From contig CM082577.2 of the NCBI GenBank assembly GCA_040954595.2, forward strand, positions 3,181,703-3,245,702: DNA of 64,000 nucleotides. The letters run 5' to 3'. Numbering within the stretch: position 1 is the stretch's first letter; every line of letters begins with the position of its first letter. Under the pieces are notes generated by a model that saw nothing but the letters and a program-made list of their open reading frames with translations, was not told where the DNA came from and did no database searches. The position numbers and the translations under genes are program-made. This DNA comes from Balanoglossus misakiensis. Its lineage: Eukaryota; Animalia; Hemichordata. Shown here one piece after another: positions 20,393 to 55,213 of the stretch.

Positions 20393-23050
20393 TTATTTGC
20401 CTTTGTTTTTCTTCAGGTCTTCTTCGAAATCTGCTCGAATCTGTTTCATGACGTCATCACCTCTGAAGAAGACATCGAGAACCGTCGTAGCCATGGCCTT
20501 GGCTTGAGTCAAGGTCGGTTTCTGAGCCTCAGGTGCGCCTAAACACATACGTGTAGAGTAAGATGAAAATCCAATCAATCAGAGAAAAATGTTGACTCAG
20601 CGTTTTCCACAATATTTTAGGCCCCCTAACTGAAAAAGTAGGATGGGAACACTCCGTTTTCTCTCTATTTTGTATTTAAAATTAAATGATGTACAATGTA
20701 TAAAGAAAAGGCATTAACTCAAAGCAAATTATGCATTGGTTATTATTGATCAACAATGTTACGATCTGTGTGACCAGGGCAATCGTTTCGGCGTGGAGGT
20801 ACGGAGCGCCCTCAATTCAAACGAATTGACTGTACCTTACAGTCTATGACCAGGGGTAAACAGTTGGTATTAAAACCCACAATTGTGACCACTGTATTTA
20901 CTTGTAGCACATACCTGCGGCTGCGGTGAAACCTTGGGAATGGTTGACGGAATCGGTTTCCAAACCATACATGGGGTGGATGGAGGGCACCTCGTAGCTG
21001 ACATTCCCCATATCAGTTGACCCCGAAGACATTTTGGCAACCTGCTCGTCGGTTAGAAACTCCACTCCCATTGTCTGGGCGTTCTCAACGAACAGCTTGG
21101 TCAGAGGTGTGTTTGGAATCATGTTGGAGTAACTATCGTGGAATCTGACTTCCATCTACAGGAAAATGGGTCGAAACTAGTCATATATACTGAGCGAAGG
21201 TCTATCTCAATTGCTTGTTAGATTGCTTGTACGTGTTCTAGCATCTAGAGATAGGCTAGAGAAGCGATGAAGCAAGACATAGGCACGATAGATTGAAAAG
21301 TATATGCAGACAAAAAGCGGTAGTCCACATACTTTGCACCCTGTTGCCTTTCCAGCACCCTCAGCGCAAGCCAGTGTTCTGTCTTTCAACTCTGACAATT
21401 CACTGTCTGTTGGTGTTCTCAGTATGTAGTTGACTACGGTCTTCTCTGGAATGATGTTTGGTTTGGTGCCTCCGTTCGCGATGATACCTGCATGTACGTG
21501 TACGTTGTGTGAGAAAGCACGACAAGCTGTAAATCCTGTAGCATTTTGAGGCATTCTCACACATAATGGGGTATGGATACCAGGCTAGTCAGACATGCAT
21601 CAGACCCGACGCAGACCTGCAGGTGAACTTCGGTTGTGTATAAAGGACCAAGTCGACATCAATTACAGCGGCCGAGATAAACGACATTAGTTCCATGCAT
21701 GGACAACTCAACATGTGGTTTACTAACACTGGAGCGTGTTTTGTTGCCATGGCTATATTGCTTACCATGAGTTCTCCATGTTGGTTTCATCTGTTGTCTC
21801 ATCACTGACATACTCTGATAGAACATGACTGCAGCATCCAGGGCGTTGACGCCTTCCCAGGGCGCATAGGCTGCGTGGGATGCCTTACCATAGAATGTGA
21901 CATCCAAACTGCAAAAATTGAAAGAAAGAAAAAAATCGGAATACCGTAATTTATCACATTATACGTATTTTAACATTCTTATTGCGCATACAGCATGACT
22001 CCTCTTGTCGAGACAAAGATCCCCAAAGTCATTTCAACGGGACCAATATAGCAATACAGGATCGGAGTTTGTGACAATTGGCCAGTCTTTAGCTACTCAC
22101 CTTGGTTGAAATGCATACGTTCGAAATGTAGACGTTCACAGGTGATGATAATATGGTACTATTAACATTTGACAACTATAACTAACCTGCAATGTAGAAG
22201 GTCTGAACTCTACCTACTGTATTAATGACAACAATGGCATAGACGATATAAATAGCTTATTGCACGGATGGACCATCATTGCAAGGTCAATGTCCCTGAA
22301 TGCCCCGGCGTCTATCAACTTGATTTTCCCTCCGCCACCTTCTTCGGCTGGCGTTCCCAAGACGGTCAGCTGTGTGGAAGAGAAGATTCGTGATGACAGA
22401 GCGCAAATACATAAATATAAATCGAACAGTTTTTCTCGAAATCGTCGCTCAGTCATTCTGAATTGTGAGACATCGTATGTACAGTGGAGCCTCGCTGCAA
22501 CGAACACTATTATTACGAACATTCGGATATATTTCGGTATTTTGTCCTTTTCTGTACTGAAATTGAGTTCGTATCGGGGTTTCAGTACAGAGAACTCTTG
22601 GATTGAATCATAGTCTTACCACTTCTTCTACTGGCCCTGGAAAAAAATCAACACACGTCATGTCCAAATTACCTTTCCCAGTGGTTTTCCAGCTGCTTCC
22701 AGAGCCGCCTTGATTCCCAATCCAGCACCAGCTCCGGCCTCTGCGATCAGGTTGTGTCCGCACGCGTGTCCAATCTCAGGCAAGGCATCGTATTCACAGA
22801 TCACACACGCGTTGACGCCGCCCTTTTCTTGAGTGCCAAACGTAGCTCTGAAGGCGGTGTCCAAAAGAAACTTCCTCTCGACGTCGAAACCACGATTCTC
22901 TAAAAAGTCAGTCAGAACTTGATGGGCGTGGTGTTCTTTAAAATTCAGCTCTGGGGTTTTCCAAATTTCTTGACTGAGTGCATTTAGGTCAGCTGCCGCC
23001 CGATCGATGGTTTCACAGGCGATCTTTTTCGCATTCTCCAGGTCGGCCAT
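20393..23050 (-). CDS. PM20D2: Peptidase M20 domain-containing protein 2-like (Xaa-Arg dipeptidase/amidohydrolase), copy A
   Basis: Six exons (22673-23050, ~22218-22369, ~21765-21908, ~21332-21487, ~20914-21155, 20393-~20538) with motifs [74 protein letters not shown]. Confidence 0.92.
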
Positions 23051-25809: not shown

Positions 25810-28172
25810 ATGGCCGATCTGGATAACGCAAAACAGATCGCTTGTGAAACCATCGATAAGGCAGCAGCTGACCTGAACGCTTTAAGCCAAGAAATATGGA
25901 AAAACCCAGAGCTGTATTATGAAGAACACCACGCCCATCAAGTTCTGACTGACTTTTTAGAGAATCGTGGTTTCGACGTCGAGAGGAAGTTTGTTTTGGA
26001 CACCGCCTTCAGAGCTACGTTTGGTTCTCAAGAGAAGGGCGGCGTCAACGCGTGTGTGATCTGTGAATACGATGCCTTGCCTGAGATTGGACACGCGTGC
26101 GGACACAACCTGATCGCAGAGGCCGGAGCTGGTGCTGGATTGGGAATCAAGGCGGCTCTGGAAGCAGCTGGAAAACCACTGGGAAAGGTAAATTATCCCG
26201 TCGTTTACTTCAAAGTTGTCTGAATCCACCCGGCTTTACTGCTTGTACTATGTGTTCACGCTTATAATTTCTCTCCGTCGCAGTCTAACGAGTATTTGGT
26301 TATTTACAGTTGACGGTGCTGGGCACACCAGCCGAGGAGGCAGGTGGCGGAAAAGTGAACTTGATCGACGCTGGTGTATTTCAGAACATTGACCTTGCCA
26401 TGATGGTTCATCCAGCGAATAAATTAACCGTTTCCGCTCCTCCATTTGCGGCAAAAATACAGTAAGTGTGTTTAAAAAAATGATCATCCGGTATTACACA
26501 CTTTGACGTGTTAGTAACTGTCTCATACGGGCACATTTACCAGCACGCCCCCCCCCCCCCATTCTAAGAACGTACTAAAAATGAAAACTTATATATGGCA
26601 TGCTATTATTTGACTATTTTAATAGTAAAGATTAAAAGAAATAACTTCTCTAATATATTTCCATTTGACTGTGTTACAGCCTCGACGTCACATTCTATGG
26701 TAAGGCATCCCACGCAGCCTATGCACCCTGGGAAGGCGTCAACGCCCTGGATGCTGCGGTCATGTTCTACCAGAGCGTGTCAGTGATGAGACAACAGATG
26801 AAACCAAAATGGAGAATTCAGGGTAATGAATGACTTAGAGCCCCAATAGCTGCCACTTTCAGCTTTAATTCGATAAAATACTGCAGTGTTATCCTTAGCT
26901 GACAGACGACCCCATGTGCCCCCTCCCATTTTCTCTACGACCGCCCGCCATCTCCTGTCCCATCCCAGGGTACTATTTTGATATCCTTGCTTATAGGGAT
27001 CATATCTAATGGAGGAGCCAAAGCAAACGTTATACCGGAGAAGAGTGTTGTCAACTTCTCGCTTTTAACACCAACGCAAGCTGAACTATCAGAGTTGAAA
27101 GAAAGGGCACTGGCCTGTGCTGAAGGTGCAGCCAAAGCCACCGGGTGCAAGGTATTTTATTCAGTAATAAAACACCATCGGGTTACGGTATTCCACGAAA
27201 TTTTGGCCAATTCACGACATAAACGCACGCACGAGAGATTGATTAAACTGGTCATGAGCGACTGGTATACAAACATTGTATGCGGTCGTGGTTTATTTGC
27301 TATTATATTACTCCATTACAGTATAAATTCAAGTTTTGCATAGCTTCCAACCATGGTATATATCATGGACGCAGCACTTATTTCCGCGCCTCGGCCAATC
27401 GGATCGCTCAATTAGCACCGTCAATATGCACGCGTACTGGTAAAACCTTTCTTTAAATCTCAACATTGATTATTGGCATCTTAAAACAATTTGCACACAG
27501 ATGGAATACAGCTACAACACGTATTACGCCGACATCATCAGCAACAAGTCGCTAGTCAGTCTTTTCGTGGGAAATGCTGAAAAAATTGGTGTACAATTCA
27601 CACCTGAAGCTGAAGTGGACAGGTTGCAATTGAGCGCGTCATCTGACATGGGCAATGTGACCCACCACGTACCCGGCATCCATCCCACGTATGGCCTGGA
27701 AACGGATTCTTTCAATCACTCCCAGGGTTTTACAGTAGCGGCAGGTATGTGACGTTTATATTTATTGTTGTGCTTTATATTTTAAATCGGAGAAGCAACA
27801 TGGTGTGCATATATTGCCGTATGTCTCAAGGTGTGTAAGTTCTTGGTATCAATTTGTGAAAGCCAATATCATGCCTTCTTGAGAAAAATAATGCCACAGC
27901 TTAATTTATTTTCATGCAATTAGCTTTGACATATAAGTCAAGAGTGGCTCCTAATTATAACATTGAGTGTGTGCCTTTTGTTATTCACACATACAATTGC
28001 ACCTTATTCACTGTATGCATGTCTAGGTGCGCCGGAGGCTCAGAATCCGACCTTGACTCAAGCCAAGGCCATGGCTATGACGGTTCTTGATGTCTTCTTC
28101 AGAGGTGATGACGTGATGAAACAGATCCGTGAAGACTTTGAAGAGGACATGCGCAAGAGTGGAAACAAGTGA
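25810..28172 (+). CDS. PM20D2: Peptidase M20 domain-containing protein 2-like, copy B (head-to-head with copy A)
   Basis: Six exons (25810-26187, ~26310-26461, ~26680-26822, ~26997-27151, 27501-~27744, ~28028-28172) with the same motifs ([30 protein letters not shown]). Confidence 0.92.
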
Positions 28173-29003: not shown

Positions 29004-32000
29004 ATGGCACGATTCCTACCCCTGCTTCTGGTGGGGCTAGTGTTTTCGCCTTCTTCAAGTAAGTAATCGCAGTGGCTGCCGGGTGAATATCCTTTGCCTT
29101 ATACGCTCGACGCGAGTGCGATCCTGAAGACACCGAACTTTTCTGTTACAAGTTCAAGGTCATATATTTCTGAGTTGAAACTGTGGTATGACATATCGGG
29201 TTGCTACGCCAGCCATCGAAACTTTCAAGTTTAAGTTTTAGCTCTTTGGAATTGAGTGACGAACGAACCTATACTGTTTTAAGTGTCTGTTGTTGTCGTT
29301 CATACGTCATGTTGTTTTGTTTCTTTAGTTCAACAGTCATGGACGGTGACGCTTCAAACCCGACACAACTTTCGTACGTGTTATTGTCAACGTCAATGTA
29401 CCGTTAGACCGAGAGTGTAAACTTCGCGATGAGACCATTTTTCGGGTGATCAAAGCTTTTTTTCGGAACACCTAATGTTGGACGCGACGGGACATATATG
29501 TGTTGGTTGAGGGGGGGGGGGGGTTCCGTAACTGCAAGGGGGGGGGTCATTAGCGTATCAGTCGCCGATATCTATGAGACCACTTTTAAGTTTTATAATA
29601 AAACCTACAAAATGATAGTACACTAGCCACGATCAGCACAATAGACGTTTTGTTGTTGTTGTTGTTTTTTTTTAGCTCGGACTATATTATCATTTTGTTG
29701 GTTTTATAAGTTGTCATTTGTGGCATATATTACTACTTATTATGGAATACACATACAGCTGATACACTTAATTAATATATGCAACAAACATATGTGCTGA
29801 AGTGATATATGCAGCAAACTATATATTTCACCACACAATTTACACTTTAAATTATTTTTAGGTGACAAATATTGTAAACTTTATGATAGCACTAGTATAT
29901 GATCACTAGAAAAAATTTCTCATGTCAATAAAAAAAATAAACCTTTAAAAGTTCAATTTTATTATCTTGGCAGGTGCATCTGATGGTGTCTTATTCCCTA
30001 GTGGTAATGTCTTTCAGCCGGTTGAGTTAACTCCTGGTAGCGATGCGGAAGAAAATCATGAGGACCCTTTCAACACAGGAGCCGAGCTGTTTGACTCCAC
30101 GGGACAGGAAAACATGCGACTGTCACTTAACTACCACGTGAAAGATTTCAAATCCAGCTCCTCACAGTACTACAGAGCACACCCAGTGCTTTTACAGTGT
30201 CTGCAGAAAGTCAGAACAGCCATGTACAAGCAAGGAGAAAAGGTATAAAATAGGCACAATGTGTATGTGTGTTCAAAATCGCAAACCTATAGGGTCTTAA
30301 TATGCAAATAATATTATTAACCAATTAGAGTCAGCCATAAATAAAGTACCCCTATCTTACTTGTAACCAATAGCTCTTATTATACGTGTCACTCACTCAA
30401 AGGCCGAGTAATGTTGTCAGCATAGAACATGTGCTAAAAATAAAATACTAATTAAGTGTGAATATAAATGATGAAAATAAGAAGGCAGAGAATTATCAAA
30501 GCATTTCTGAATAATAGAAACTGTTGCTCATGGCCATCTCTCGAAGATAGCTGGTGATTAGCTGTCGTGTATTTTGATTGCAACTTCAGTCAGTTGCACA
30601 GCTAATCAATTTCCTTGAAGTTTTCTGTCTGGTGAATTATTCTTTCATCTAGTTTTTAATTCAGCTCAATCAGAATACAGGATAACACTTTAAATTTGTA
30701 CTCTAACAAACTGAGGACCCACATTTAGCAAGTGGTTCAGCCAGTGGTCAAAAGTGTGCCCCAATTTTATTGGGAAAGAAAAAAAATCAATAGATAGCAC
30801 ACAGAGTTTGTAGTCACGCATTGTTTGATAAATACCAATGGTTGCTTTGAATAACCTTTGTTTAACTCTATCACAAATCTATTGTGGTAATGAGATCATA
30901 AACTATGTTGGCTTCACTGTTTCCAAAAACAACACATTTGTGATTGATTTTCTGAACTGCAGTGGTGTGTAAAAATAGCCTTTCGGTACCACTGGCACTT
31001 TTCAGTTCATTCTGTAGCAACATGTGCATGTATGTAAATTTATGAAATCGTGTTCCATTTATAAATAGAAGATAAATAAACAAAATTAACATTTCATTAA
31101 ACGGCTAGTCCATGGCAACTTTGGCCAACCGAACAGAGATGTAAAATATAACAGAAAAAAACAACACTCAGTGACCTTTAAGCTTGTGTGTTTATACGTA
31201 ACCAATGCGTTGCTATGTAATGCTGGCTTTATCTGCATCGTGACTTGGTTGATCATTTGAGGGAAAAATATTTTAGTTGTACTGTTGATATGGGCTTTTT
31301 GTTGGAGCAGCTCAAATAAACTGGTTTTCGGAATTGGTCCACCACATATCCTGGACCAGGCTTTGTTTTCCAAAAGACGTTTTTGTGTGGAATAAGTGTT
31401 TCCTGGTTCATTAAACCTGTTTCACTGAAAAGAAATCTTCAGTTCCATTGTTGTCAATATTTGGACATCACCTAGTATTACACGGGGAAATGGCAATTGA
31501 GAGGTTGGACCAAAGTAAAATGGATATAAATTAAAGTCCATGCCCGTTTTACCAGTTTTTAAGTGGGAGACCAGAGAATGGTCTGATTACTGCAGGTTGT
31601 TCAAGTAATTGTCTTTTTTTCTTGCTTGCTCCAAGCTAACTAGATCGATGCCCAGACATACATCCAACATGTGTGCATTAGGAACTGAGATTCCAGACGT
31701 TCTGAATAAACAAGGAAATAAAAATACCTGCTTAGACATACACGCCATAGAAGTATTGTGAGCATTCACAATACATTACCTTGACCAGCTGTTTTCTTCA
31801 GCTTACACCGTCAGCTTACACCTTAAGTGAATTTACATATACAAGGCTGTTTGTTATTTGTACAAACAATTCAGCTTTTTGGCAATTACATTTCATACCA
31901 TCATTTAATTCTTTTTAAATTGTAAGATTTGAAAGAAGAATAGGTAGTTGGCTGTAGTGGAATTATGCAAAATTAAAGAGATTTTATACATAATATATAC

Positions 32001-35000
32001 ATGTAGAATTACAGAGATACATGAACCTAACAATTTCATTTTGATATCAACGTTTGGAAATAGTAAAAAGAATTTCCTTGCTTCAGTTATAATTGGCCTA
32101 CATGTGCTGACCAGGTGTTTTTTTTCCCCACTCTCACAGGTGGTGATAGCGACAGCCTACCAGACCAGAGACGATGTGTCCGGTTCAACCGACACACACA
32201 TGCAGTACTTGAGGTCCGGTTCTGCTGCAGAGATAGAATATAAAAATGGCGGCACTGGACTGAAGACTGCAGTGGACTTGGCAGATGTAGTTGTCAGACA
32301 GTGCATCACTCTTTTTCATGTAAGACCTGATTTTTTTGTTCATGCCTAAACCTTTCTAAGGGACTTTAAAAACCTGTACTACTGGTTTAACCTTTCACCC
32401 CTGTTTCCGCTGTAGAGGTCCAACTTTACCTTAGAAAACAATGGATTAGGACCAAACCATGTTGGCGAAAGGGTTTAAGGTCACTCTTTGATGCTAAAAT
32501 GTGTTCACCACTCTGTGGAACATTGCCGTTTTATTGCTTTAGCCTTTGTGTGTTGACACACAGAGTTGGATCTACCGCCAATCTGGATACACATACATGT
32601 ACATGTACACACATACACATTCATGGAAACGACCTTCCAAGACATTACAACGCAAACAAACTGTTTGAAAGTAGGCAAGTAGTCCTTTAAGTCTAGTGAC
32701 GTACATACATGTACTGTCCATGTACTGTCCGTGTACATATGATTCAACAGCTATCGAAGAAACAGTCCCAAAACCAGTTTAAACGTGATGACATGACAAT
32801 GCATTAGCTGTTGTTAAAATTTCATAATTATCTTGAACATTTTAAATACAGCCTCTGTATTTAAAACCCAGCAAATGAAATTTACGTGTCATTCAGCTTC
32901 ATCTTTTAGTAAAAATGCCAAAATCACCTTGAGAATTCACAGTTGCCTGCAAAATGAAAACAAACTCTATAGTTCCTGTTATCAAGGGATGATTATGGAA
33001 GTCAGGAAATGTATCATTGCATCCTGTGATAAGCCCGTGTGTGTCTCTAATATTGGTGACATGTTTGCAGGTTATTATGTCTCCGATACAAAACTCGCTT
33101 CCAGTGTGTGAGAATTGCAAATATAATCTGAGTGGTCATTTGTGCCTATTTGATAAAATCCTAGAGTAGACACACACATTTTACTTGTCTTGCTCCACTC
33201 ATCAGGTCACAAAACATTAATACACCACTGTGTATTTTATTCATGTTCCAGGGCATACAGCGAGATATTGGTCTGTATCTGTATGCAGATAAAGTCCATG
33301 TCCACATCCAGGGCCCTGATGAAGAGACTGCTTACTACGGTGCGGCCAGTGATGCGGACAAAACTGCGGCTGAGCTGGAGGCAAGAGTCCTTGACATCAC
33401 GGATGAAGTCTATGGTAAGGTCTTACTCTATTACCCCTCACCTGTACTATGGCACCCTCAAATTTATTGCTGAGAGTAACATAGTCCCAATTATCTGAAT
33501 ACCACATATTTCTTAGATTTTCATTGGTGAAAACATTTAAGGAGAGTTTTCAATCTAGCTTGGTTTGTCCTGGGCTGTCAGTAAGTTCAAGCTTTTTCTG
33601 AAATTTTATTTTATTTTGATTTTTGCAAATGTGTGACAATGAATTCTCACAGATCCTGCCAGGTCTCCAGATTGTGATCTGACTGAGCACAGTCTGTCAA
33701 ATGGAGATCACTACCCTACCAGTGTCAACTCGGCTGAGGAAGCGGTCGGTGCTTTGGACAGAAAAGTTACAAGAACAATGGAAGCTGATTTTGGCAGGTA
33801 GTGATACTCAGATTGTGGTTAAAAATTTTTGTGGCAGGACATTTGCGTAATCGTATCGGTTAAACAGTTTGAAAATTGTGCAGCTGGCAGTCTTGAAGTT
33901 TTATAGTGTATTTTGAGTGTCTTGACAGTGTTTTGTCTTATGAAACTCTTTTTGCCCCATTTTCCTGCAAAATCACATCCAGATCCACATCCTTCTCCTA
34001 CTGTTCAAGTTTCTTATGTTTTGCAAACATTAATAACACATACTTCTCTCTTCTCAGACTCATTCAGTATGCTGGTAGAAACATTGAATTTGAAAACTCT
34101 GAGAGATCGGCATCATGGTGTGGCAGCAGTGGACGTGCGTGCGTCGATTGCAGTGCAGGCATCAAAGGATCAACACCAAACAGCAGGTCTGTTGTAAAAA
34201 GATTTTACATCATCTGCAGGAGGGATGGTGACATTGATCAAAGCTATTTCCCCTTCCTCTTCCTGCACACTCATGCCTGGCACTACAATCATTTCAAACA
34301 ATTTACCAAGAGCCATTGTATACAGGCCTAATCTGATTTGCTATCATCGAATTGAAGATGACACATTATCACCAGCTATCTTGATTGCCATCCTTTTGTC
34401 CTGGTATCTTAAATCCTCTACTTTGTGTTAGTTATCTGTTGATCATGTGAGATAGATCTGATAATTGAATTTCCGCCTTCCCCCCCCCCCCCCTCCCCAA
34501 ACTGGTGATATGTGGTGAATGGTAATTGGTATGATCTCACTGATACATAATGCAAAATGATAATATATAATTTAGCCAACAGTATAGTTGAAAGGAAATT
34601 TTAAATGACAAACGTTGGCTGGCTAAGATGTGTGTTAACATTAACTATACCTTGAAATCAGAGATGACAAAATACATTTTCAATTGAACACAAATTATAT
34701 TGTCGTGACTATTTTTATGCTTAATTAACTTGGACTTCCTGGTGACTTTGGCCAATTGTCTCGTGAATATCGATCGAACCATAACCTTTGTCCTGATTTC
34801 TGCCACAGATGTTCCGATCGTGTGATGAGTACCAGGCTGAACAATGTCATCAAATATTTACAGATGATGGTCAGAAATCAGTGGCCGGGAGGTAAGAACA
34901 TCATAAATTATGAGTAGGTCACCAGGGGTAAAGGTGTGGACAGGTTAAGTTCAAGGGCACCTTGACATAAAGGACAAAGATTTCCTGTTACATTGAGCTG

Positions 35001-38000
35001 TTATTCTATGACAATTTTTTGTGCCTTGTACAATATTACCTCTTGTATGCATCCTCAAGGAAAGCAAATAAAAACAAAAATCTCCAACAGAAAAATTTAT
35101 TTTGAATCATATGACATTCCTCATATTAATTATTGTTTTCTTTCTGTTGCAAAGTAAAACTGAAGGTGACAGAAGCCTGGGACGAACCGTACTACGGAAG
35201 TCCCTACCCTGATGGAGACCATGCACCCGACTCTCTGCACTATGAGGGCAGGGCAGCGGCACTGACTGTTTCCGACGATGACAATGGTAAACTCACCAAC
35301 CTGGCGTCGTTCGCAATATGTTCAGGAATGGACTATGTACAACACAATGGTACGATGAATTAGGATTGCTTTATATCTGTAGGGTTTAATCCTTTCACCC
35401 CCAATTCCCTTTTCAAAGGTGCAACCTATCATATCCCCACATGAAGCCAAGCAGCCCTTGGAACTTTTTGACAAAATGCCTGATTTCTGTTTTCACATTC
35501 ATCATCTAATACTTTCAGGCGATCACATCTTTGTGGCAGTCAGGAAGCAGGATGGCCCCCAGCAGAGGCTTGTCCATTTCCCGATTGCTGACCTTTTGGC
35601 CGCCGAGGCTCCGGCCGATGACGTGGACATCTACGCCGTACCGGACGGCTACAGTGAGGAAGACAAGGCAGAAATGTACCTCTTTGACAGTGATCACAAA
35701 GTGAGTGGAAATTTTTTTATTATGATTACCTGGAACATTGTCCCAGCTGTGTCCAGCCTTGTAATTTGTATCAGCATTTGCAACCAATACGTTAATGTTT
35801 TAATTCCCGGGAATTTTGATTGAATTCCAGGAAGAGAAGAAACTGTCGAACAATGCCACGATTAAAGACTTCAAGTCACCTTCCAGTAGATACTTCAGAC
35901 TTAATCCACGATTGGTGGAATGCTATCAACACATTGTGACCAGAGAAAACAAGGCCAGGAAAGAGAATGGTAAGGCAATGTTGGTTTACCATGTGACTGC
36001 CATGTGACATTTCGCTTAATCTACGACAATCTCTGATTTGACACCATGAAATGTACTTGAATTCGTTCACATCAAATCATGGGTGCAGTCATAATTAAAG
36101 CCAAAAAGTGTAACTTAATTAATACGGTAATATCAAGTTGCCAATTTCCTTTTTTTTTCCAGATCCACCAATCAAAGTGATTGTCGACAGAGCCTACCTG
36201 ACCAACCCAGAACAAGACAGCCAGATTCCCGACGTCGATCCACGATACAACAACCATGTGGTAGGACGAGCTATGCAGATACATTACGACCTCTCCACTG
36301 GACTCGACCCCAAGCACTACACTCCGAACAGGCTTGCCAAGAGAGCTGTACACAAGTGCGGTCCCGTATTTGTTGCTAAACAGTACAGCATTGGCGTTGG
36401 TAAGGAATTGGTTCTTTGTAGTGAGCGTAGAAGGAAAATATCATTAGTGTTTTGTAATATAAAACACCTGAAGACATAAAAGTAGTACTACCTGCCCTGT
36501 AGTCTCAGTGCTGTGGTATATATGATATAGCTTTACATATCAGACATACAAGATGTACGTTAGCATATATTACCTGAATACTTCAGTATGTGTATAAATG
36601 GGTCATTCTGGTCTTTACATGCAGGTCAGGTCAGGGCCAAATATCACAAAGTTCAGTGTTGGGACGTGTTGAATGTGTGTGTGTGGGGGTGGATGCGGTA
36701 CAGTGCACAGGTCACTCATGTGGAACCTCTGTGAAAAAGACAACTTTCTCTCGCAGTGACATGCTCACAGTGTCTGCATTAATGCACAGAGACCTTGGTT
36801 ATTATTTGTAAGCGAAAGAGAACCGCACTGGGTGGAATGTTTATTGTTTTGTTTGTCGGTGCGTAGGAGGTACATGTAGCGTCTCACAGTGCGTCGCGTC
36901 CCACACATTGTTTTGAATGCAATTAAATCTTTTGTCTGGAATTGTAGTATCCTTATGCTACACAGTTTTCTAGGACAGCCAGTTTTGATTCCTGAGGGTC
37001 TAGTCTCGATTGTCGATACAGAAATTCAGCTTGGACAGAATTTACTTGTCTAAAGTTTTGTCTGGCTCATGATCCATTTTCTATATATTCACCAAACTTA
37101 CATTTACATTGGTTGAGTCTGTCATTTCCATTAAGGTGCGCCAGTACATACATTTTGTAAACAAGAAAATATAAAATTTGACCTTCTTGGTGCATTAGGC
37201 AAGTAGGTCAACAGATGTGGATCAGCCGAACTGTGAATTAATTGTCTCCAGCAGGGCACAATGACTAACCTACTACATGTATATGTGGTGTTTTCACACT
37301 TCACATACTTTGGGCCCTAATTAAGCTTATTGACGAAATAACAAACATATATTGTGAAATCTGTGAGAACTAACACCTTGTTAAACTGGAAAAATGTTTG
37401 ATGTAAACATTTGGTCTTTTCCCTACTGATCTGAGGCCCTAATAAACTGAACACCTGGACTATACAGATATGCATTTAGAAAAAAAAAATTATATAAATT
37501 TATTTTGCTTCCCCTATGTATCATATCCACATATCCATAATATCCATACTTTATTTTCCTCTGTCACTGTTTTGGCAGGCATCTATGAGGATTCTGTTTA
37601 TGTTGACATCCGCGACAACTTTGATGCGTGGGTGGAGTCGGAGGATTTACTGCCGGTTAATAAGACAGAAGATGAGTTCCGAGACGACATGGAGAAGTGG
37701 CTGCAGCGATCCGTCGGTGGGTTTTCTCAGCTCATTAAAATACAACAGAAACTCTTAATCTTCAACAAGTGAAATTTTTGTTGTAACTCGCATAATGTGT
37801 GTAACAATTATCACACTGTCTCTTGTGGCCTGCAGTCTCGGGACTTTCCTCAACTGGCCTTTATAGACAGGTGGCTTTATAGACAGGCCAATAAATGTAC
37901 ATTGAAAATTGCACAGGGATTGTAACAAAGTGGCCACTATATAGAGGTGAGGTGGCCACTGTACAGAGGTGGTCACTAACACAGGTTTGACTATCAAATG

Positions 38001-40768
38001 CTTCAGTTGCTTAATTGCCCCCCCCCCCACCCCATAACGGTTGATTGCTGCTCCAATAGCAACAACCTGTAGGTGTACACGTACATATTTTCACATATCA
38101 GCAATCATGACGAGAGATTATATTTGTTCCCCCCCCCCCCCCTCCTTCTTTGGTGTACAGAGGGCCGCGTCATTGACCCTGACAACCCGGAGCGTGCCTG
38201 TCGCGAGTCGGTGGAACCACAGAAACAGTCGCCAGGTTTCAAACACGAACACCCACAATCAGTGAGGCGACGCAGGTCTGCAGGACAGGACCCCAATGAA
38301 TGCCAGGCCAAGACTAACACCAAACATTGCGACACAACCAAAGAACACAGAAATACTGAGGTGAGGGCGTGGCTCTACATACTGTGAAATACTTTATTTT
38401 CACTGGGATTTATTTTTGCTGAAAACAAAAAAAATGTTGAATAATTCTGAGATTTTATATTCACTATTTCTTGTCAACTTGTGTGCAGAGAATAGGAAAT
38501 AAGAGTTTTCGCTCAGATTTTATTTTAGCAGAAAAATGAGTCAAGTGAAAAATAGTGAAAATAATGTCCTAGTGAAAATTAGGTATTCTACACTATGGGC
38601 CGCGTTGCTTCAGATACACTGTATAGTCACCGTTGTGAGATGGTGAGATAGATTTTCATTTCTTTGATGCGGTTTGCAATATCGCTGAAGAAACAGAAAG
38701 TGTGTTTTCCATCTGTTTTGAGAGTTGCACGCAGTGACATAATTTCTTTAATGTTCTGTATGAAACGGAAACTGGCAAGGCTCTCCAAATCAACCAGAAA
38801 ATGCATGACTTGCATTCCTAGGAAACATTACAATGCGATCCAATTAAGTTCAGCGATTAGATGGCAACCTTTGGTCATATTGTAGTGAGTGAGCAATTTA
38901 CCGCTGGAGTTGTTAATACACTGGGAAACTTTGTTTACAGTCGGGGGCTCCTGCATTGCTCTTATGTTGTGCGTTGTTGTTGTCCTGTTACAGGTGACCA
39001 AAATCTGGACCCAGGTAACTCGCAAGCATCTGTATCACGACGCAGATGAGGTTGAACTTGCCCTGGAAGGATGTTTTGGTGTCTGTAGTACCTGCCAATC
39101 AGGTGAGGCGTGTCACATGACAGTCTGCAACCAATGGCTGCAATACTCTGGGAAGGTCGACCCCCCAGTGTTTGCTGATTGGTCATGAAATACATGTAAG
39201 AGAATGTTTGGGTTGACTCAGACACAGGCTGTGCCTATAAGCCAAGGGATAAATTGATGCTAAAGTATAAATTTCTCGCCGCAGGTGATCTCTGGTGGGA
39301 CAAGATTGAGAACTGCAACGAGTTTCTCCACTGGGTTCCATTCGACTTCTACGAGCAACACGACGAGGTTGCGTTCTATGTGAGAGAAAACACGGAGTTG
39401 AAGAATGCTGCCTGCCGGGGGCATTGTCTCGACAAAGCACCGCTGTTTTCACTTGTTGGTGAGTTTCGTGATCCTCGCTGGCTGGTCAGCCATGTTGGTC
39501 ATTATTGTTGTACGTTGCATAGGCCATCCTTTTGAGGCAGGATCGTTCTTTGCATGTAAAAATATGAAAAATATCTAAATATTTCTCACACACTGGAGCT
39601 CTCTGTAAATCAAAATTTCTGTAGTCTTTCCTTCATATTGTTTCTCTCTGCCCCTAAATGCGATTTTCTGAAACAAGATGCTGGATGTTTTGACTCCCTA
39701 TGTTCTTATTTCACTGTTGAATAGCGCCCTCTGTGGAAGAGCTCTTCAGGCCTGACCCCCAGCGCAGTGTGAAGGAGCCCCTGTACTCTGTCGCCAACAA
39801 CCCTCTTCCAGTCTACGACCTCCTGTACAAACTCTACGCCCTGCACGCCACCGGTCAGATCAAAGTCTATGTCAAAGATCAGGCTGAGTTGTCAACTCTC
39901 CGAGGACCTCTGAAGGTGAGATGTTTGGCAGTGCCCTTACCAAATTCTCAGGCACAAAACACACTCCAGAGATTATTACACACCCCAAACAAACCACTTC
40001 CCAAAGTGGTGCCTTTCGGGTATATAGGCAATGACACCTGATTCTATAGCTATAATTCTATAGATGTCTATAGAACCTTTTTTGGAAAGAGCTGAAATGG
40101 GTTTCACCAGTTCGTCATAAACACAAATTAAGCGCTTGGCAGGAGCTGTACACAAAAAGGACTGACGGTAAAAAATCTGTTAATTGTTGGTGTCAGTATA
40201 ACGGACATGTTTTCATTCTGTGTGATGCGTCCAATTCCAGATGGCCATGATCCACAACAAAGCCGTGACGGAGGTCAAGATCTACGTCTCGGATCCGAAC
40301 AAAGTGGATTCCGTCACCAGTTCCATGGAAAACATGCTGCTGGAGTGGACCAAGTCCAGCTGCCCGGATCATTCCAGGGAGTACGTGCCTCCGTTCAGCA
40401 TTGAGGTCATGCCATCAGGTATGGTAGCTCTGTTCTATCTGTTGGTGTTGTTAAGGCCTATTTTTTATACTCGTGATACGACAGGCAATCTCTGAATTGC
40501 TGATTGTAGAGAAGATAGAATTTAGAGAAAATAATCTTCGGTGGTCTTTGGCAGATTTTGTAGGGCAGTCGCCTAAAAACTCTGTTGAGAAAGCTAACAA
40601 ATTTATATGTGCTGTAAACTATGTCATTGTATGTTTTAACTATTCTCTGAATTTTATTTGATGCCAGGTATCACCAAGCGAAGTGCCGAACATGAACTGC
40701 GAGAGGAGATGTTGGCCAACCGCAAAAACTGGGAGAAGAATTGGTTGAAGTCCCATACCTTGCTGTAG
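29004..40768 (+). CDS. Secreted ~955-aa protein: signal peptide - M15-like domain - Hedgehog N-terminal (Hedge) domain - M15-like domain - furin site - Cys-rich C-terminal region; no Hint domain
   Basis: 18 phase-compatible GT/AG exons: 29004-29058 ([18 protein letters not shown]), 29974-30242, 32140-32319, 33252-33414, 33653-33797, 34058-34186, 34809-34891, 35155-35349, 35519-35700, 35831-35969, 36163-36399, 37579-37716, 38161-38360, 38994-39102, 39285-39458, 39725-39915, 40241-40418, 40668-40768 (2868 nt, TAG). Hedge motifs: SDRVMSTRL...[19 protein letters not shown]...SLHYEGRA...[24 protein letters not shown]. Confidence 0.88.
32387..32478. mobile_element. piggyBac-like MITE, same family as 9545-9640
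   Basis: TTAA CCTTTCACCC...tgtagaggtc...GAAAGGGT TTAA. Confidence 0.6.
37820..37993. mobile_element. Tc1/mariner-type MITE remnant, same family as 13338-13499
   Basis: Shared internal sequence and right end cactaacacaggtttgacta. Confidence 0.65.
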
Positions 40769-42436
40769 ATTTGGGGTACCCAATTACACCAAGAAATTCT
40801 CACATTGCTTTGATAGCAGTATTGCATTTACCACAGATTTGTATATTTGAATGTTTTTGTATCATGTGTATATATATATATTCAGGAAATGGACAATTTT
40901 GTGGGTTTTTTAACTCTTCGATTTTAAAATAATTAACCCAAAATAACAGCCTTGAATTATCCATAAACAAGAGTATTACATGTGGGTAATAATAGTACAT
41001 TGTACTTCAGCCATGAATGAAGATTCCTGTTTTATGAAGTGCGCCCCCATAGGCGTGTTTCTTCCTCGCTGAACGTCAAACCGTCCTGGAGTGCAGAATC
41101 ATTTCTGCAATACCATAAAGTTTCTGATAAAAAAACAAAACATGAATATAGTCAAGATTTGAAATTTAGTTTTGCCCAAATCGGGATTTTGTGCAGAACA
41201 CGAAATGTCGTTTGGATATTTTATGATTTCTACTTTCAACTACATTGTACTGTGATATATTTTAATAAGTCAAAATGATTTTATTAATACTCAAGATGAT
41301 TTGTGTTCTGTCCTCGCAAAGTTGCAATAAAATTTCCTTTGTATCCGCGAATGTAAGTATTTTGTATGCAGTTTTTGATTTTCACGCCCCCCCCCCAAAG
41401 CTGTGAGTACAGAGACGTGTTTCTCTATTGGACATGAACGATTTGGTGTGAAACATGAAAGTTTACTCGAAAGTTAAATGAGTGCGCCCTCAAAGGCATT
41501 CAATAAAAATGATTAGAAATCGTTGAATTCCGGTCACTGTCACGGTCTTGAAACTTGAACTTGCCCTGGTTGTGATGATCCACGGTGTCAGGTCCGAGTC
41601 ACGACGTCACGACAATGAAGAGAGATGGGGAAGAAACCATGGTAACCATCACTCACAGCAATGGCTTTATTCCAGCTTGCATCACAACAAGAAGTAAACA
41701 TTTGCATCTGGATGCTGAATATTAAAATCGTGGAATGCATAATAACCCGGAAGAATAATCAATATGAATAATTCATAAGTGTGGTATTTTAACCATGCAT
41801 CCAGCTAATTTGTCCTGGTTGATTTACATTTCCCGCTCTTTGTCACCTAAAACAGATGAGCACGGCAAGCACTCAACCAGGTGGGATTTTTTTTCGCTGT
41901 TCAACATGATATGGTATTTCATATTTTATGCATACTGTTTTCATATATTTATCTATATATTAACCAACAAAACTCTGGTCCTCCGCAGACTCCTGTGAAC
42001 CATATCTGAACATATAACACAGTATAGAATTAAAGAGAAGCTTCGGAAATGACCTACCAGTAAAAGCACAATATAAAACACATGCGTGATATACATTTGT
42101 ACATTTGTATATTTGGCGAGGCTTTCGGTCTTTCCACCACCAAAGGTTTCCCAATGCGACGCTGTGTAAATATCCCATTGCCGCTACGGCGTAACCCCCC
42201 CCCCCCGGGGGTCAAACTTGAAAAGCCACTTTATCATGGATATTTCTAATTATGAATGAATGAATGAATGAATGGACGGATTGTCTGGTGCGTTCGCTTT
42301 CCTTTCATTGTTTCGCGACCACATTGTTGGCATACATTTACACGTATAATTGAGAGGTTTCTATTTTAGCCCCGTCAACACGGCATCAGCCCAGCGGTCG
42401 GACTGTCCACCATACGATACGGGCAGTGGATAAAAT

Positions 42437-45227
42437 ATGGCTGCCAATGACACACGAGTCGTCAAAGTGCTTGTTTTAGGGGACAGTGGGTAAGTGCGAT
42501 AACCCTACCAAATATAGCAGTTTTGTTATACGATCCTCACACACACCGCATTGACTCGTCACGTCCATATATATTTTAATATCATGGTATCCGCGTTTGC
42601 AAGCTAGTATATCGCATTTAGAACGGAGCCTCACTGCACTGGTGTTATATTTACGCACGTATATAGTACTATTGATAATATCAGTACGGTTATCTGTGCG
42701 CAAAATATGAAGGATATACCACAGTATATCCAGATACACTACAGTATATGTTGCCATGGTAATTGGAAAGCCCCGTGTTTTAATTCTGTATCCGATAGGG
42801 CCTCAGATACACATACTGTAAAATGCATTGACCGTACATATGTGTACGCCGGGTCACGCAGCGAACATGCGAAACGTTCCATATGTAGCGTACGATGTCA
42901 AGTCCTTCGACACGACAGCTTGAATATCAGGCGTTGTACAAGGTCGCCACAACTGCAATATGTTGTTTACAGTCATTTAGGCATTTTACGGTGCCATAAC
43001 CAATATTTTTTTATCAGCATATCATCGTTTTGGTCATCAAATATTACAATTACATAACCCATGAACCATTGCATATCTCGAATGGTGACTATTATTACGC
43101 CTCCCAATATGCCCTATTCAAATTTAAATACGCCTGACCTCTGAAATATAAAGACTTAGTGCCTTTACGGATATTCACAGTGCAGGCCTATATGTCAGAC
43201 GAGCGCCACACATAAGAGGATTGTGTGATATCGGCGGCCATGGCATTTCAAGAATTGAGCCGATTTGCATGAGATAACCTTTTGATGCTGTAACTGGTCA
43301 TTATCATACCAGTACTGGTACATGTATGTGATTAAACAATCAGTTGATTGATTGCCATACACACCCACCATTTCGATGAAGGGACATGGACAACGAGAGG
43401 TTCAGTGTGAAAGCCAATATTTTGAGGTTCCGCGCCGCCATTCAAGTTGGCATACGGCGGTCTCAATATAGAGGTAAAATCACAATGCAGCACCACAGGG
43501 AACGGAGCAAACTGACTGATCTGGGTGTATGTTGTTGTTGTTGTTGTTGTCTCATATCTGATCGATCCGAGCTGAACCCACCAAATAGACCAAATAGCTT
43601 TCATTCCCACACAAGAACCACACACATTTTTCAGTCGTCCACGTTCCTTTAAGTCTAAATTCTCTTTTTTCTGGTTTTGCGAATATAGGGTTGGAAAGTC
43701 TTCGCTTGTAGATCGCTACTGCCACGATAAGTTCAAAGACCACTACACACCGACCATAGGAGCCGACTTTGCTGTCAAAGAAGTTAAAGTGGGCGATCAA
43801 ACTGTTACTATGAAAGTAAGTAAAATTTTTAATAAAAGCGCCTAATAATGAAAAGTACGTTGTTTGCACGTTGAAAAATACTGACCACAGCCCGCAACCA
43901 GTGTACATGTTACATCTTGGACTCTTAAAATAACCAAATAATCGCACGTAGGAAAATCTGATGGTATGTGGTTTTACTTAATATGAGCTGAAAAAATTAT
44001 AGTTTGAATAAGATCGTAAACATTGTGGCTGCTGATATGATTATGTTAACATAGTGTACAGGTAGGTAGGCGGTCAGAAGGACAATTGGTATACATGTAT
44101 AGTATTTACACAACATATATTAATTGTGTGCCTAACTGAAATATGGCCGATCGACCCCGCAAATACTGGAAGTTGCTTCAATACACAGGCACAAGTGTGT
44201 CGGATAGTCTAGCCAGCGAAATTGGCCATTTACCCAACTGATTTCTGGACCACCCAGTGCACTTGTGTGGACGGCATCCTGGAAAAGCGGTGACAAAATC
44301 ACTCGAGACTTGTGATAATGCCTCTCTTTGTTCGACCGTAGATTTGGGACACGGCAGGACAGGAGCGTTACAGCAGTCTGGGCATCACCTACTATCGGGG
44401 AACACACTGCTGTGTCCTGGTCTTCGACGTGACGGTGCCGGAATCGTTCCGAGCACTGGACAAGTGGAAAGACGAGTTTGCGCTGCACGCCGACCCGACC
44501 GTCGCAGCGCGCCACACCTGCGTTGTCCTTGGCAACAAGGTGGACGTTGAACTTGAAGAGAGGAAGGTAATAAGGGAAAGTGATATTTTGATTGTAGTTC
44601 CATTGCCGTCTGAAAAAGTTGATTGCCATGGGTTTAAAGAACCACCAGCCTGGAAACCCAGGAGGAATAATTACAATAATGTTCTGCAAAAGACGTGTCT
44701 CTAGGGCGAAATATGAACGCTTGAGTGATTATTATTTTTTTTTACCAAAGGACTTTGCTTGAATAACAAGTAACCGACATGAGGAAAAATTACAATAATT
44801 CTGGCGTTACAATAATCCCATTTTAAAATGTATATTAGTTAAACAAGGCAAAGGCTTGAGTTATATCGATCGCGTTATATGATTTGTCCCTATAACATTA
44901 ATAACAAATTATCGAATGGCATGAAAAGCGCGATGATTTGACCACTTTTTGTCGCACTATTAATGCCATGTCTCTTTTTTTCTGCTATTGGCATTTTGAC
45001 TACAGGTGGCCACAGACGAGGCGAGGAAATGGTGTCTTGCAAACGGCGACATCCCTTACTTTGAGACGAGCGCAAAGGACAATACGAACATAGACCAAGT
45101 GTTCCAATTCATTGCCATGAACGCTGTTTTGCACGTCACGGATGAACCGGACATTCGGTCGGTCTCGGTGCAGCTGGTCGACCCGAACCTCAGAAAGAAG
45201 CGCCAGAAAAACTCCGACTGCTGCTAG
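42437..45227 (+). CDS. Rab7-like small GTPase, paralog 1 (most divergent)
   Basis: Exons 42437-42489, 43689-43815, 44342-44566, 45006-45227; [37 protein letters not shown]-terminal CC prenylation motif. Confidence 0.9.
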
Positions 45228-47053
45228 CGAATGAATAAATTATTTAGGTGTCAAAAATATTTGATATCCTGTATTTATACCAGTATTACTTCGGACTGAA
45301 GCGTATGACATACGGGTCAAGTTACATGCGCACAAATCCATCCGCATGTCTTGTTGCTATATCAGCGCCACAGCGCAGCACTGAGATGCAGACAGCGGAC
45401 GCAGCGATGGCCGGCCGTCACCCCGTATGAACACGTCGCTCGACATCAACATGGAAGATATTTTACGCGATGTGGTAGTAATGTGATACCAGGCCTAATG
45501 TGATATAATGAGGAATCTGCTTGATACCCGGCTCTGCGACGATGTGTTACAGTTGAATGCCAAGTCTGAGATCATCAACCGTACATCCGTGCTGAAATAT
45601 ATCGCTGTGGAAAAACAATCCGCTGAATATGTATTACATGTCTTTCTATGCAATATGAACCTTGCACTACAATTTTGTTTTCGCCAAACAATTAACAAGG
45701 ATAATTGCATCAAGATAACTAGGGGTGATGTCGGGTCGAGGATGGATATGGCACCTGGTTTTATGCATAGAGTGGTTCATCCTGTTGCTGTTCATCTAAC
45801 TTTTTCCAAAGCGTTCATTTTTATCGTCCAGTCCCAAGATTCAATATCAAAGCAGGTAACGGCAACGATTATTGTGACTAAAAGTTCTGATCAGTTTTTT
45901 TTTAAATGCATCGTGGTATGACCGGCAAAATTCCTCCGCTCCTTACTGTGGTACTGCTGACCGGTGATAGAATCATTTCTCTGAACGAAACAGTCGATTC
46001 GGCAAATGATTTACAGTTTCCCGTATTTGTCACCAAACATCTCATTATTTTGACATCTTTTTTTAAGATGACTACAAACGGGCAATTTCCAGTCGCAATA
46101 ATCGTGACATGTACACAATTTACTTCAATGAATGAATTAAATGAATTGAATAAAAATTAGTTTATTTTCAAAGTGAACAACGGGTCACAGTCGTGATTTC
46201 CAAGCAAGCAAACAAGCCATCAAACAAGCAAACAAACAAACACAAGTCGTCGACAATTCCAACATAATTAATGCGTCGACCTTTATCTGAGTCATTAAAA
46301 TCCTATTAAATGGCGCTTTGAAAATTTCTCAGTTATGTAAATTCTGGGTTACTGAGCTACATTGCTTCTTACTGGCACATGGTCCAAACTTCTGTATTCT
46401 ATACAGTCCCACAGTACAAGAAAGTTTAGTTTTACACGTATATGAAAGTTTATAGGTCTAAAGACACTCGACTCTATGGGGCTTCGTCGCGGTATGTGTG
46501 ATCACGGTCGTTGTGTGATATGCAACTTGAGGACCTATTTTAGTATTTTTATGCGATACATCTATTGGCCATGCTTCAGCTTGTTCTGATGACGTTGTGA
46601 ACTTTAACAGATCGGGGGAAATGGGAAACAATTGGCCGTTCACAAAAACGGAACAAATCCCCTTCTATAGTGGTGCGCACCTGATTTGCATGTATTTCAA
46701 TGGCGTCTGTCCCTACAATGCGGACTACTAATATGCATGCAATTGTTTCTATGTCCACGGCCAGTGCATGTATACACACGGGTGTGCACAACCATAGACA
46801 TGTAGATGGGTATAACACACATACAATCACTTGAATGAAATGACGTAGCATAAATAAATAGGTCAGCGCGTCAGTGCATGCGTAGTAAGTGTTTAGATAA
46901 GACGCATTGGTTCGGTAACCTATTTTATACGGCGCTGCGAAGCCATGCCAATAGACGCAGGGAACGTCAGAACTTGTCGGCTAGTGATAGTGTGATAGGT
47001 CACATCACCTATGCCCTCCGGGAGAAAGAGTCACTGGTGCCGGTATATACAAG

Positions 47054-50399: not shown

Positions 50400-50411
50400 G
50401 ATGACGTCATC
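50400..50411. promoter_or_regulatory. Palindromic CRE/ATF site GATGACGTCATC upstream of Rab7-like paralog 3
   Basis: Exact TGACGTCA core in a 12-bp palindrome ~220 bp before the ATG. Confidence 0.4.
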
Positions 50412-50627
50412 GCACGAGCGGGTGCTTTCCTTGGATCGAGCGACATTTCTTCAACGTGCGCCAGCTTACACCCACCTCAATCTCAGCTCAGCTTGGATTA
50501 TTAAGCTTAAATAGGAGTGCTTGCAAATTACCTATAACCCTTTTTACGGCGTCTGAACCAACTCCGCTTCCAAGCACGTCTACTGATCTTCGCGGATTCG
50601 ACGAAAATCTCCCCCGTGACCCTCGAG

Positions 50628-55070: not shown

Positions 55071-55213
55071 TTCAGATCTTGTCTAATTTTCACCTCGGCC
55101 TATCTTCTTGTAGGAACCTCCAATTTTTAAAGCGGCTTTTCGTACTTCTTCTTCGAAGTATGTCGATTCTGTCGTGTCGCAACCTGACTGTGGCTGCCCA
55201 GGCACGACTCGCT

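What the first reader, a model, noticed from the sequence alone, without database searches (positions are those of the whole stretch)
29004..40768. Hint-less secreted Hedgehog-domain protein with the Hedge domain sandwiched between two M15 (DD-peptidase-like) domains
Seen: exons 33653-35560 spell a full Hedge domain ([46 protein letters not shown]...SDRVMSTRL...[16 protein letters not shown]...SLHYEGRA). Two mutually similar domains flank it: [35 protein letters not shown]...GSAAEI...[14 protein letters not shown] and [34 protein letters not shown]...[10 protein letters not shown]...[15 protein letters not shown]. Established: the Hedge fold is homologous to bacterial Zn D-Ala-D-Ala peptidases (M15/LAS family); canonical Hedgehog is Hedge+Hint and hedgling is Hedge+VWA+cadherin. 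Inference: the flanking domains are M15A/MepK-like, giving a triple LAS-fold secreted protein that is neither Hh nor hedgling. It could be a relic or derivative of the peptidase-to-morphogen transition. Similar composites may already sit in invertebrate databases as uncharacterised proteins; I cannot check this.
Basis: partly seen in the sequence, partly recalled or inferred. Interest (0 to 1): 0.9.

Follow-up and report, generated by a model that had tools for sequence, protein, structure and literature searches.

The report
Hedglet hides a CD38-like domain
This acorn-worm-like gene belongs to the little-studied "Hedglet" family, and it joins a Hedgehog domain, two bacterial wall-peptidase-like domains and a previously unnoticed domain predicted to have the CD38 fold into one likely secreted, likely enzyme-dead protein whose relatives in a sponge and a choanoflagellate suggest it is older than Hedgehog.

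Summary
Eighteen GT-AG exons give a stop-free 955-aa protein, colinear with orthologs (81.6% identical to a Ptychodera flava protein). No Hint domain was found. The family already has a name: its Hedge cores match the "Hedglets" of Jägers & Roelink 2021, described only from a ~105-aa core and called enigmatic.

New here:
(1) Both flanks are M15A (Peptidase_M15_3)-derived, from a different lineage than Hedge.
It lies behind a conserved furin motif.
(3) All three peptidase-fold domains lack the zinc triad, and the CD38-like domain has no invariant glutamate.
(4) The whole module occurs in the sponge Oscarella and a choanoflagellate, against the published idea that Hedglets derive from Hedgehog. 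An unexplained Oscarella "Hh-like" EST appears to belong here.

It is not a transition relic: bacterial Hedge proteins are closer to Hh. Best guess: a secreted, processed pseudo-enzyme that binds bacterial wall material (0.4). No function was tested.

The parts
29004..40768 (+). Hedglet gene, 18 coding exons: 29004-29058, 29974-30242, 32140-32319, 33252-33414, 33653-33797, 34058-34186, 34809-34891, 35155-35349, 35519-35700, 35831-35969, 36163-36399, 37579-37716, 38161-38360, 38994-39102, 39285-39458, 39725-39915, 40241-40418, 40668-40768 (955 aa)
   Evidence: GT-AG, stop-free; colinear with P0001, 81.6% identity over aa 22-955
29004..29058 (+). Exon 1, predicted signal peptide (aa 1-~20); no other transmembrane-like stretch
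   Evidence: hydropathy: best 9-residue window 2.8 at aa 5; best 19-residue window only 1.4, also at the N-terminus; no dedicated signal-peptide predictor was run
30081..33660 (+). D1, M15A/Peptidase_M15_3-derived domain (aa 55-225); zinc-ligand positions read L132, E139, H184
   Evidence: (Ply500 Z 6.4, LysB4 Z 6.2, model 69-195)
33667..35553 (+). Hedge (Hh-N) domain (aa 228-418) over exons 5-9. First zinc His kept (H370); Asp, second His and catalytic Glu replaced (A377, F411, N406); four Ca-ligand positions kept (E286, D317, E348, D351)
   Evidence: (Z 22, rmsd 1.5 A to Hh-N)
34107..34812 (+). Four-cysteine insertion of about 26-28 aa inside Hedge (aa ~288-315), between Ca-ligand positions; absent from bacterial-type Hedge and from the choanoflagellate-type members
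   Evidence: alignment; for Hh rows
35662..38165 (+). D3, second M15A-derived domain (aa 455-640); zinc-ligand positions read H545, Q552, Y600
   Evidence: (1lbu Zn DD-peptidase Z 10.2, rmsd 2.4 A, 117 aligned)
38199..38276 (+). Linker: Cys652 (inferred disulfide to Cys904) followed by the furin-type motif R674-R677
   Evidence: motif in 25 of 29 members; Cys652 and Cys904 both present in 63 of 66, both absent in 2
38295..40411 (+). C domain with predicted CD38/ADP-ribosyl cyclase fold (aa 684-920); no invariant Glu; most conserved acidic site E854
   Evidence: fold; conservation in 69 rows
40676..40765 (+). Dibasic K926-R927 and a conserved 28-aa helical tail, possibly a released peptide
41326..41507 (+). 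Two candidate polyadenylation signals (41326, 41502)
   Evidence: pattern match only

Best explanation
The gene encodes a Hedglet-family protein with four enzyme-derived domains (M15A-like, Hedge, M15A-like, predicted CD38-like) that lack their canonical catalytic residues, and it most likely works as a secreted, protease-processed binding protein for bacterial cell-wall material rather than as an enzyme or a Hedgehog ligand. Shown: the ORF, domain order, orthology and loss of the zinc triads. Predicted from models: the folds. Inferred: secretion; cleavage at R674-R677, leaving the N-terminal three-domain part tied to the CD38-like domain by a Cys652-Cys904 disulfide; Ca2+ binding by Hedge; binding of peptidoglycan stem peptides in the empty peptidase clefts, as non-catalytic peptidoglycan-recognition proteins do (analogy recalled); and a non-catalytic or weakly catalytic nucleotide- or protein-binding role for the CD38-like part in feeding on or defending against bacteria.
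For: All three LAS domains come from peptidoglycan-peptidase families. Their intact relatives are stand-alone M15_3 proteins with the full His-Asp-His set, and these branch at the base of the fused domains. Relatives add further wall-enzyme domains to the same module: M15_4 in the choanoflagellate P0044 (E 3e-10) and in unnamed P0045, and M23 in Didymoeca P0056. P0045 keeps a full triad in its first flank. Bacterial-type Hedge proteins are fused to amidase, glucosaminidase, lysozyme and PG-binding domains. Triads are complete in 0 of 31 D1, 0 of 31 D3 and 0 of 30 Hedge domains, yet ~40% identity is kept over ~950 aa from hemichordates to molluscs, which suggests a binding role under selection. 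Furin motif in 25 of 29. Named hosts are mostly microbe-, suspension- or deposit-feeders (feeding modes from general knowledge).
Against: No binding, expression or phenotype data. The arginine before the first zinc ligand, invariant in the 10 intact M15_3 proteins, is kept in only 12 of 31 D1 and 4 of 31 D3, so substrate binding may also be lost. The named hosts include a predatory starfish and grazing gastropods. The furin motif is missing in 3 echinoderms and the sponge. The Cys652-Cys904 pairing rests on two gastropods, possibly one event. Active-site mapping in the CD38-like domain uses range offsets, not a residue-level superposition, and E854 is acidic in 65 of 69 rows.
Confidence: 0.4

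Rival explanations
1. It is an extracellular-matrix or mucus scaffold, or a modulator of Hedgehog distribution: the dead Hedge domain binds glycosaminoglycans or Ca-dependent Hh co-receptors and the other domains are protein-interaction surfaces.
For: Four Ca-ligand positions are kept in 23-26 of 30 Hedge domains and the first zinc His in 29 of 30. Some relatives carry fn3 or cadherin-like arrays. PMC8052667 links the Shh cleft to matrix association (passages).
Against: A four-cysteine insertion sits between the Ca ligands. Many relatives have flank + C domain and no Hedge at all. The module exists in a choanoflagellate, and Hh is absent from that group according to PMC8052667.
Confidence: 0.25
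2. The CD38-like domain is an active, non-canonical NAD(P) glycohydrolase or cyclase, using E854 or another residue. The peptidase-fold domains target it to bacteria, and furin cleavage plus disulfide reduction release it, as in two-chain effector proteins.
For: The fold match covers most of the cyclase chain (205 of 251 residues, Z 11.5). This domain plus one flank is the most widespread core. E854 is Glu in 41 and Asp in 24 of 69; position 791 is acidic in 44 of 69. The furin loop is probably spanned by a disulfide. The same fold is used as an antibacterial NAD-depleting domain in bacteria (passages).
Against: No invariant Glu in any column. Columns 861-873, where CD38 Glu226 falls by range offset, hold Glu in at most 9 of 69. 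No conserved Trp near the expected positions. The papers describe two Glu and two Trp as required. No sequence match to any cyclase at E up to 10.
Confidence: 0.17
3. It is a Hint-independent Hedgehog-type ligand that signals through Patched.
For: Hedge superposes on Hh-N at 1.5 A, and the protein is probably secreted and processed.
Against: The Hedge domain is internal. It has no N-terminal cysteine or basic tail like those of Hh rows. [quoted passage not shown] No cleavage motif frees Hedge on either side.
Confidence: 0.05
4. The exons belong to separate genes or a gene-model artefact.
For: No reads from this species could be laid on the locus.
Against: Stop-free 18-exon frame. 24 further colinear proteins in five phyla or subphyla, including ones on ~3 kb contigs.
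Confidence: 0.01

Closest known systems
Hedglet (Jägers & Roelink 2021, PMC8052667; passages and supplement read)
   Same: Their listed Acanthaster and Branchiostoma Hedge cores match my P0008, P0005 and P0004 by eye. The window protein is 44-46% identical to these over its length. They also note loss of catalytic residues.
   Different: They analysed only a ~105-aa core and, in the passages and supplement seen, give no domain architecture. They list lophotrochozoans, amphioxus and echinoderms and suggest derivation from Hh. New here: hemichordate, sponge and choanoflagellate members, the two M15A flanks, the CD38-like domain and the furin linker.
Hedgehog (Hedge + Hint/Hog)
   Same: Hedge fold (Z 22, 35-39% identity over ~150 aligned residues); part of the Ca site.
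   Different: No Hint, Hedge is internal, zinc triad and catalytic Glu lost, four-cysteine insertion, Hedge split over five exons.
Hedgling (Hedge + VWA + cadherin; Nv 200640 in PMC2362128, passages)
   Same: Hint-less Hedge protein, present before animals, zinc motif incomplete (PMC6027127, parts 1-2 of 4 read).
   Different: No VWA or cadherin match in P0001, no transmembrane segment, Hedge not N-terminal, 955 against ~3600 aa.
M15A / Peptidase_M15_3 Zn D-Ala-D-Ala peptidases (Streptomyces 1lbu)
   Same: D3 superposes on 1lbu (Z 10.2, rmsd 2.4 A). D1 and D3 match intact stand-alone M15_3 proteins at probability 99.6, and those match Pfam at E 1e-15 and 1lbu at E 3.5e-5.
   Different: His-Asp-His triad incomplete in all 62 D1/D3 domains of the core set.
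ADP-ribosyl cyclase / CD38 / BST-1 family
   Same: Predicted fold over most of the chain: Aplysia cyclase Z 11.5, CD38 11.3, BST-1 10.2. All 44 listed Foldseek rows for the second model are this family. Secreted and disulfide-rich.
   Different: About 10% identity, rmsd 4.5-5 A, TM 0.45-0.54; no TLEDTL motif, no conserved catalytic Glu or Trp pair; fused behind peptidase folds.
Oscarella carmela 'Os_hhlike' EST (Bürglin 2008, PMC2362128 supplement S10 part 1 of 2)
   Same: After its Hedge part it continues into a stretch that resembles this family's linker and the start of D3 (by eye).
   Different: Only a 154-residue fragment, reported as having neither Hog nor VWA. Not identical to O. pearsei P0033, so probably a paralog.

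Membership tests
Hedglet | Hedge core orthologous to the listed Hedglet sequences | tested here: met
   (window groups with the hemichordate orthologs, 98*, inside the 29-row bilaterian group, support 81)
Hedglet | Loss of zinc and catalytic residues in Hedge | tested here: met
   A377, F411, N406 at the Asp, His and Glu positions
Hedgehog | Hedge fold | tested here: met
Hedgehog | C-terminal Hint/Hog domain | tested here: not met
   the ORF ends at 40768 exactly as in orthologs
Hedgehog | N-terminal Cys of the mature ligand directly before Hedge | tested here: not met
   Hedge starts at aa ~228, behind D1
Hedgehog | Patched binding and signalling | not testable with these tools
   needs an assay
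Hedgling | VWA + cadherin repeats + membrane anchor after an N-terminal Hedge | tested here: not met
M15A peptidases (D1, D3) | LAS/M15 fold and homology | tested here: met
   D1 alone only Z 6.4, but linked by sequence to intact M15_3
M15A peptidases (D1, D3) | His-x6-Asp plus second His zinc triad | tested here: not met
   0 of 31 D1, 0 of 31 D3
M15A peptidases (D1, D3) | Peptidoglycan hydrolysis or binding | not testable with these tools
   needs an assay
ADP-ribosyl cyclase / CD38 | Two-lobed cyclase fold | tested here: met
   (predicted models, pLDDT 85 and 90)
ADP-ribosyl cyclase / CD38 | Pfam or sequence-level match | tested here: not met
ADP-ribosyl cyclase / CD38 | Catalytic Glu226 equivalent, Glu146/TLEDTL motif, two Trp | tested here: inconclusive
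   no invariant Glu and no Trp near offset-mapped positions; position 791 acidic in 44 of 69; no residue-level superposition was available
ADP-ribosyl cyclase / CD38 | NAD turnover | not testable with these tools
   needs an assay

The most novel reading that the evidence does not exclude
Hedglet is a third, pre-animal Hedge lineage beside hedgling and Hedgehog, and an unrecognised second eukaryotic branch of the CD38 fold. It is a two-chain antibacterial device inherited from choanoflagellate-like ancestors: disarmed wall-peptidase domains dock on bacteria, and furin plus reduction free a non-canonical NAD-consuming or NAD-binding domain.
Probability: 0.17. Interest if true: 0.9.

Novelty: new member of a known kind. 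Interest (0 to 1): 0.64.

Why it matters
Hedglets were named in passing and left as an enigma, thought to derive from Hedgehog. Their presence as a complete module in a sponge and a choanoflagellate reverses that order and adds a third ancient Hedge lineage to the question of where Hedgehog came from. It probably also explains the old Oscarella 'Hh-like' EST. The hidden CD38-like domain extends that fold to a large, unannotated eukaryotic family and gives direct assays (wall binding, NAD turnover, furin processing). Several database entries label these proteins SHH or IHH, which is misleading.

Tried and rejected
No whole genome is held for the window, so paralogs and a true Hh gene in this species were not examined. 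No RNA holder was listed; this is no evidence either way. Per-exon Pfam found nothing for the flanks or the C domain, and a C-domain profile found no PDB sequence at E up to 10; the CD38 link is structural only. The protein atlas did not complete, and VIA on the isolated C-domain model could not be run, so that model was searched by Foldseek only. Rejected: the three LAS domains as a triplicated Hedge precursor, and the gene as an intermediate between bacterial peptidase and Hh. The Hedge tree is a quick tree of 75 of 86 rows; I dropped 3 spurious M15_3 rows and 8 fragments. It holds no true Hh or hedgling sequence, because none came from the tools, and no AU test was run, so it cannot place Hedglet relative to them. 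My 'sponge-like' label for unnamed P0058/P0061 was a guess and is not used. The flank tree used 63 of 129 domains and does not resolve whether D1 and D3 duplicated once. A suspected amidase or PG-binding region in sponge P0033 got no Pfam support at E 0.2. Searches for six locus or accession ids found no paper. Earlier scan notes held nothing on this family. No complex prediction was sent.
Full report
1. The gene. Eighteen exons with GT-AG introns give 2868 nt and 955 aa without an internal stop. Exon 11 alone retrieved one protein, P0001 of Ptychodera flava, 954 aa, which is 81.6% identical to the model over aa 22-955. The host is therefore likely an enteropneust hemichordate (inference). P0001 retrieved 25 proteins including itself, from hemichordates, amphioxus, starfish, Owenia and molluscs. 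They are colinear, and several lie on ~3 kb Logan contigs, as do many oyster members, which implies single spliced transcripts in those species. No Hint was found in 270 window ORFs or by tblastn with a partial Hint (best E 1.3). Neighbours are unrelated: Ras-family genes downstream, and M20, AMP-binding and EGF/Reeler genes upstream.

2. Anatomy. AlphaFold2 on P0001 with 21 rows gave pLDDT 85. Hedge (231-418) superposes on Hh-N at Z 22, rmsd 1.5 A. The second flank (472-625) matches the Streptomyces Zn DD-peptidase 1lbu at Z 10.2, rmsd 2.4 A; the first flank (69-195) matches M15 endolysins at only Z 6.2-6.4. Sequence closes that gap. The profile search found stand-alone relatives P0113 and P0125 that match Peptidase_M15_3 at E 1e-15 and 1lbu at E 3.5e-5. 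D1 and D3 match these at profile probability 99.6 and each other at 99.4, but match Hedge at 10 or less. In a quick tree of 63 of 129 such domains, the 53 fused ones form one group (95*) nested among intact stand-alone enzymes. So the triple-LAS reading is right, but the flanks and Hedge come from different peptidase lineages.

3. The missed domain. Residues ~690-932 match the ADP-ribosyl cyclase family: Aplysia cyclase Z 11.5 with 205 of 251 residues aligned, CD38 11.3, BST-1 10.2. The best unrelated row for this region is Z 7.3 with 107 aligned. Foldseek gave E 1.8e-3. An independent model of a 30%-identical, unnamed member (P0055, pLDDT 90) returned only this family in all 44 listed rows, best E 2.5e-4. 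The match is distant (about 10% identity, rmsd 4.5-5 A) and has no sequence support. Between D3 and this domain lies an R-x-[RK]-R motif in 25 of 29 members; it is missing in three echinoderms and the sponge. Cysteine co-loss suggests pairs 686-739 (22 rows lack both), 785-789 (2) and 652-904 (2) among 66 rows. The last pair would span the cleavage site, but rests on two gastropods. A dibasic site and a conserved helical tail end most bilaterian members.

4. Catalytic state. With an intact protein as ruler, the His-Asp-His triad is complete in 0 of 31 D1 and 0 of 31 D3 domains. Among 67 other domains it is complete in 11: ten stand-alone or prokaryote-like enzymes and the first flank of unnamed P0045. 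In Hedge the first His is kept in 29 of 30 but the second His in none, while 21 of 22 bacterial-type domains keep each ligand. Four Ca-ligand positions are kept in 23-26 of 30 (positions mapped through a bacterial-type Hedge protein, Shh roles from PMC6027127 and PMC8052667). For CD38, papers name Glu226 as essential, Glu146 within TLEDTL (PMC6368836 and PMC12356396, passages), and two Glu plus two Trp (PMC12605009, passages). By the range offsets, Glu226 falls near 861-873, where Glu occurs in at most 9 of 69 rows. No Trp is conserved near the offset positions of CD38 W125 and W189 (these two numbers are recalled). Against a fully dead domain: E854 is acidic in 65 of 69 and D791 in 44 of 69, and I had no coordinates to place them.

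5. Distribution. The profile search gave 1092 hits at E 0.001 and listed 150. I looked up 30 of the 141 new ids. The complete flank-Hedge-flank-cyclase module is in the sponge Oscarella pearsei (P0033, behind trypsin and PLAT domains) and in the choanoflagellate Craspedida sp. UC1 (P0044, behind C2 and an M15_4 domain). Didymoeca and Salpingoeca urceolata have flank + cyclase without Hedge, the former with an M23 domain inside the cyclase part. Many unnamed proteins share this two-domain core. A second class with two Hedge domains, one flank and the cyclase part occurs in bivalves. No vertebrate, tunicate, ecdysozoan or cnidarian name appeared, but most hits were not looked up, so absence is not shown.

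6. What is in print. PMC8052667 (passages and the whole supplement seen) and its preprint (passages) name 'Hedglets' in lophotrochozoans, amphioxus and echinoderms. They call the distribution enigmatic, note loss of catalytic residues and suggest derivation from Hh, using a ~105-aa core. Their listed cores match P0004, P0005 and P0008 by eye, so the gene is a Hedglet. The word occurs in only these two versions of one paper. I found no description of the flanks, the cyclase-like domain or pre-bilaterian members in searches, which cover only open PMC papers and bioRxiv. Bürglin 2008 (passages; supplement S10 part 1 of 2) reports an Oscarella EST with Hedge but no Hog or VWA; its tail resembles this family's linker and D3 start (by eye). 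The original hedgling and sponge EST papers were not read.

7. Evolutionary reading. Bacterial-type single Hedge domains score 145-200 bits on HH_signal, while this family scores 82 or less. In a quick tree the 22 bacterial-type rows stand apart at 99* (no Hh or hedgling included). Hedglet is thus a derived side branch, not the peptidase-to-morphogen intermediate. With sponge and choanoflagellate members, and Hh limited to cnidarians and bilaterians according to PMC8052667, it cannot simply derive from Hh, unless P0033 and P0044 are mis-assigned; their divergence and colinear order argue against that.

8. Mechanism and verdict. I commit, at 0.4, to a secreted, furin-processed pseudo-enzyme that binds bacterial wall material. 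The rivals are a matrix or co-receptor scaffold (0.25), an active non-canonical NADase delivered by the peptidase-fold domains (0.17) and a Patched ligand (0.05). The gene is a new member of a named but undescribed family; its architecture, CD38-like domain and age appear to be new. Interest 0.64.

Noticed in passing
window 43576-52231 (+): At least three tandem Ras-family small GTPase genes follow the Hedglet gene (Pfam hits at 43576-45224, 47574-49222, 51746-52231).
   Followed up: no
window 507-5559 (-), 13782-18251 (-), 21210-21958 (-): An EGF-repeat/Reeler gene, an AMP-binding enzyme gene and M20 peptidase exons lie upstream. A + strand ORF at 27444-27749 also looked M20-like by eye, which may be a second copy.
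   Followed up: no
protein P0191 (unnamed ENA record): The second half of an M15_3-type flank domain (75% identical to P0113) is followed by a partial Hint module (E 2e-19). This may be an independent M15A-Hog fusion paralleling Hedge-Hog, or a mis-called gene.
   Followed up: partly
proteins P0113, P0125, P0187, P0189, P0190: A small family of apparently secreted, intact M15_3 peptidases, two listed in a eukaryote protein set and one fused to a C-type lectin. These are the closest intact relatives of the Hedglet flanks.
   Followed up: partly
proteins P0034-P0042, P0047: A second class (about 900-1500 aa) with two Hedge domains, one flank and the cyclase-like domain behind a long unannotated N-terminal region; the named members are bivalves.
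   Followed up: partly
proteins P0053, P0066, P0070, P0073, P0075, P0083: Giant (2700-4300 aa) unnamed proteins, some with fn3 or cadherin-like repeats, ending in the flank + cyclase-like core without Hedge.
   Followed up: no
proteins P0003, P0011: Branchiostoma lanceolatum Hedglets are annotated 'SHH' and 'IHH' in public records.
   Followed up: no
window 54234-55127 (+), 54246-55082 (-): Long overlapping open frames in a GC-rich stretch (52% GC) without a Pfam match.
   Followed up: no
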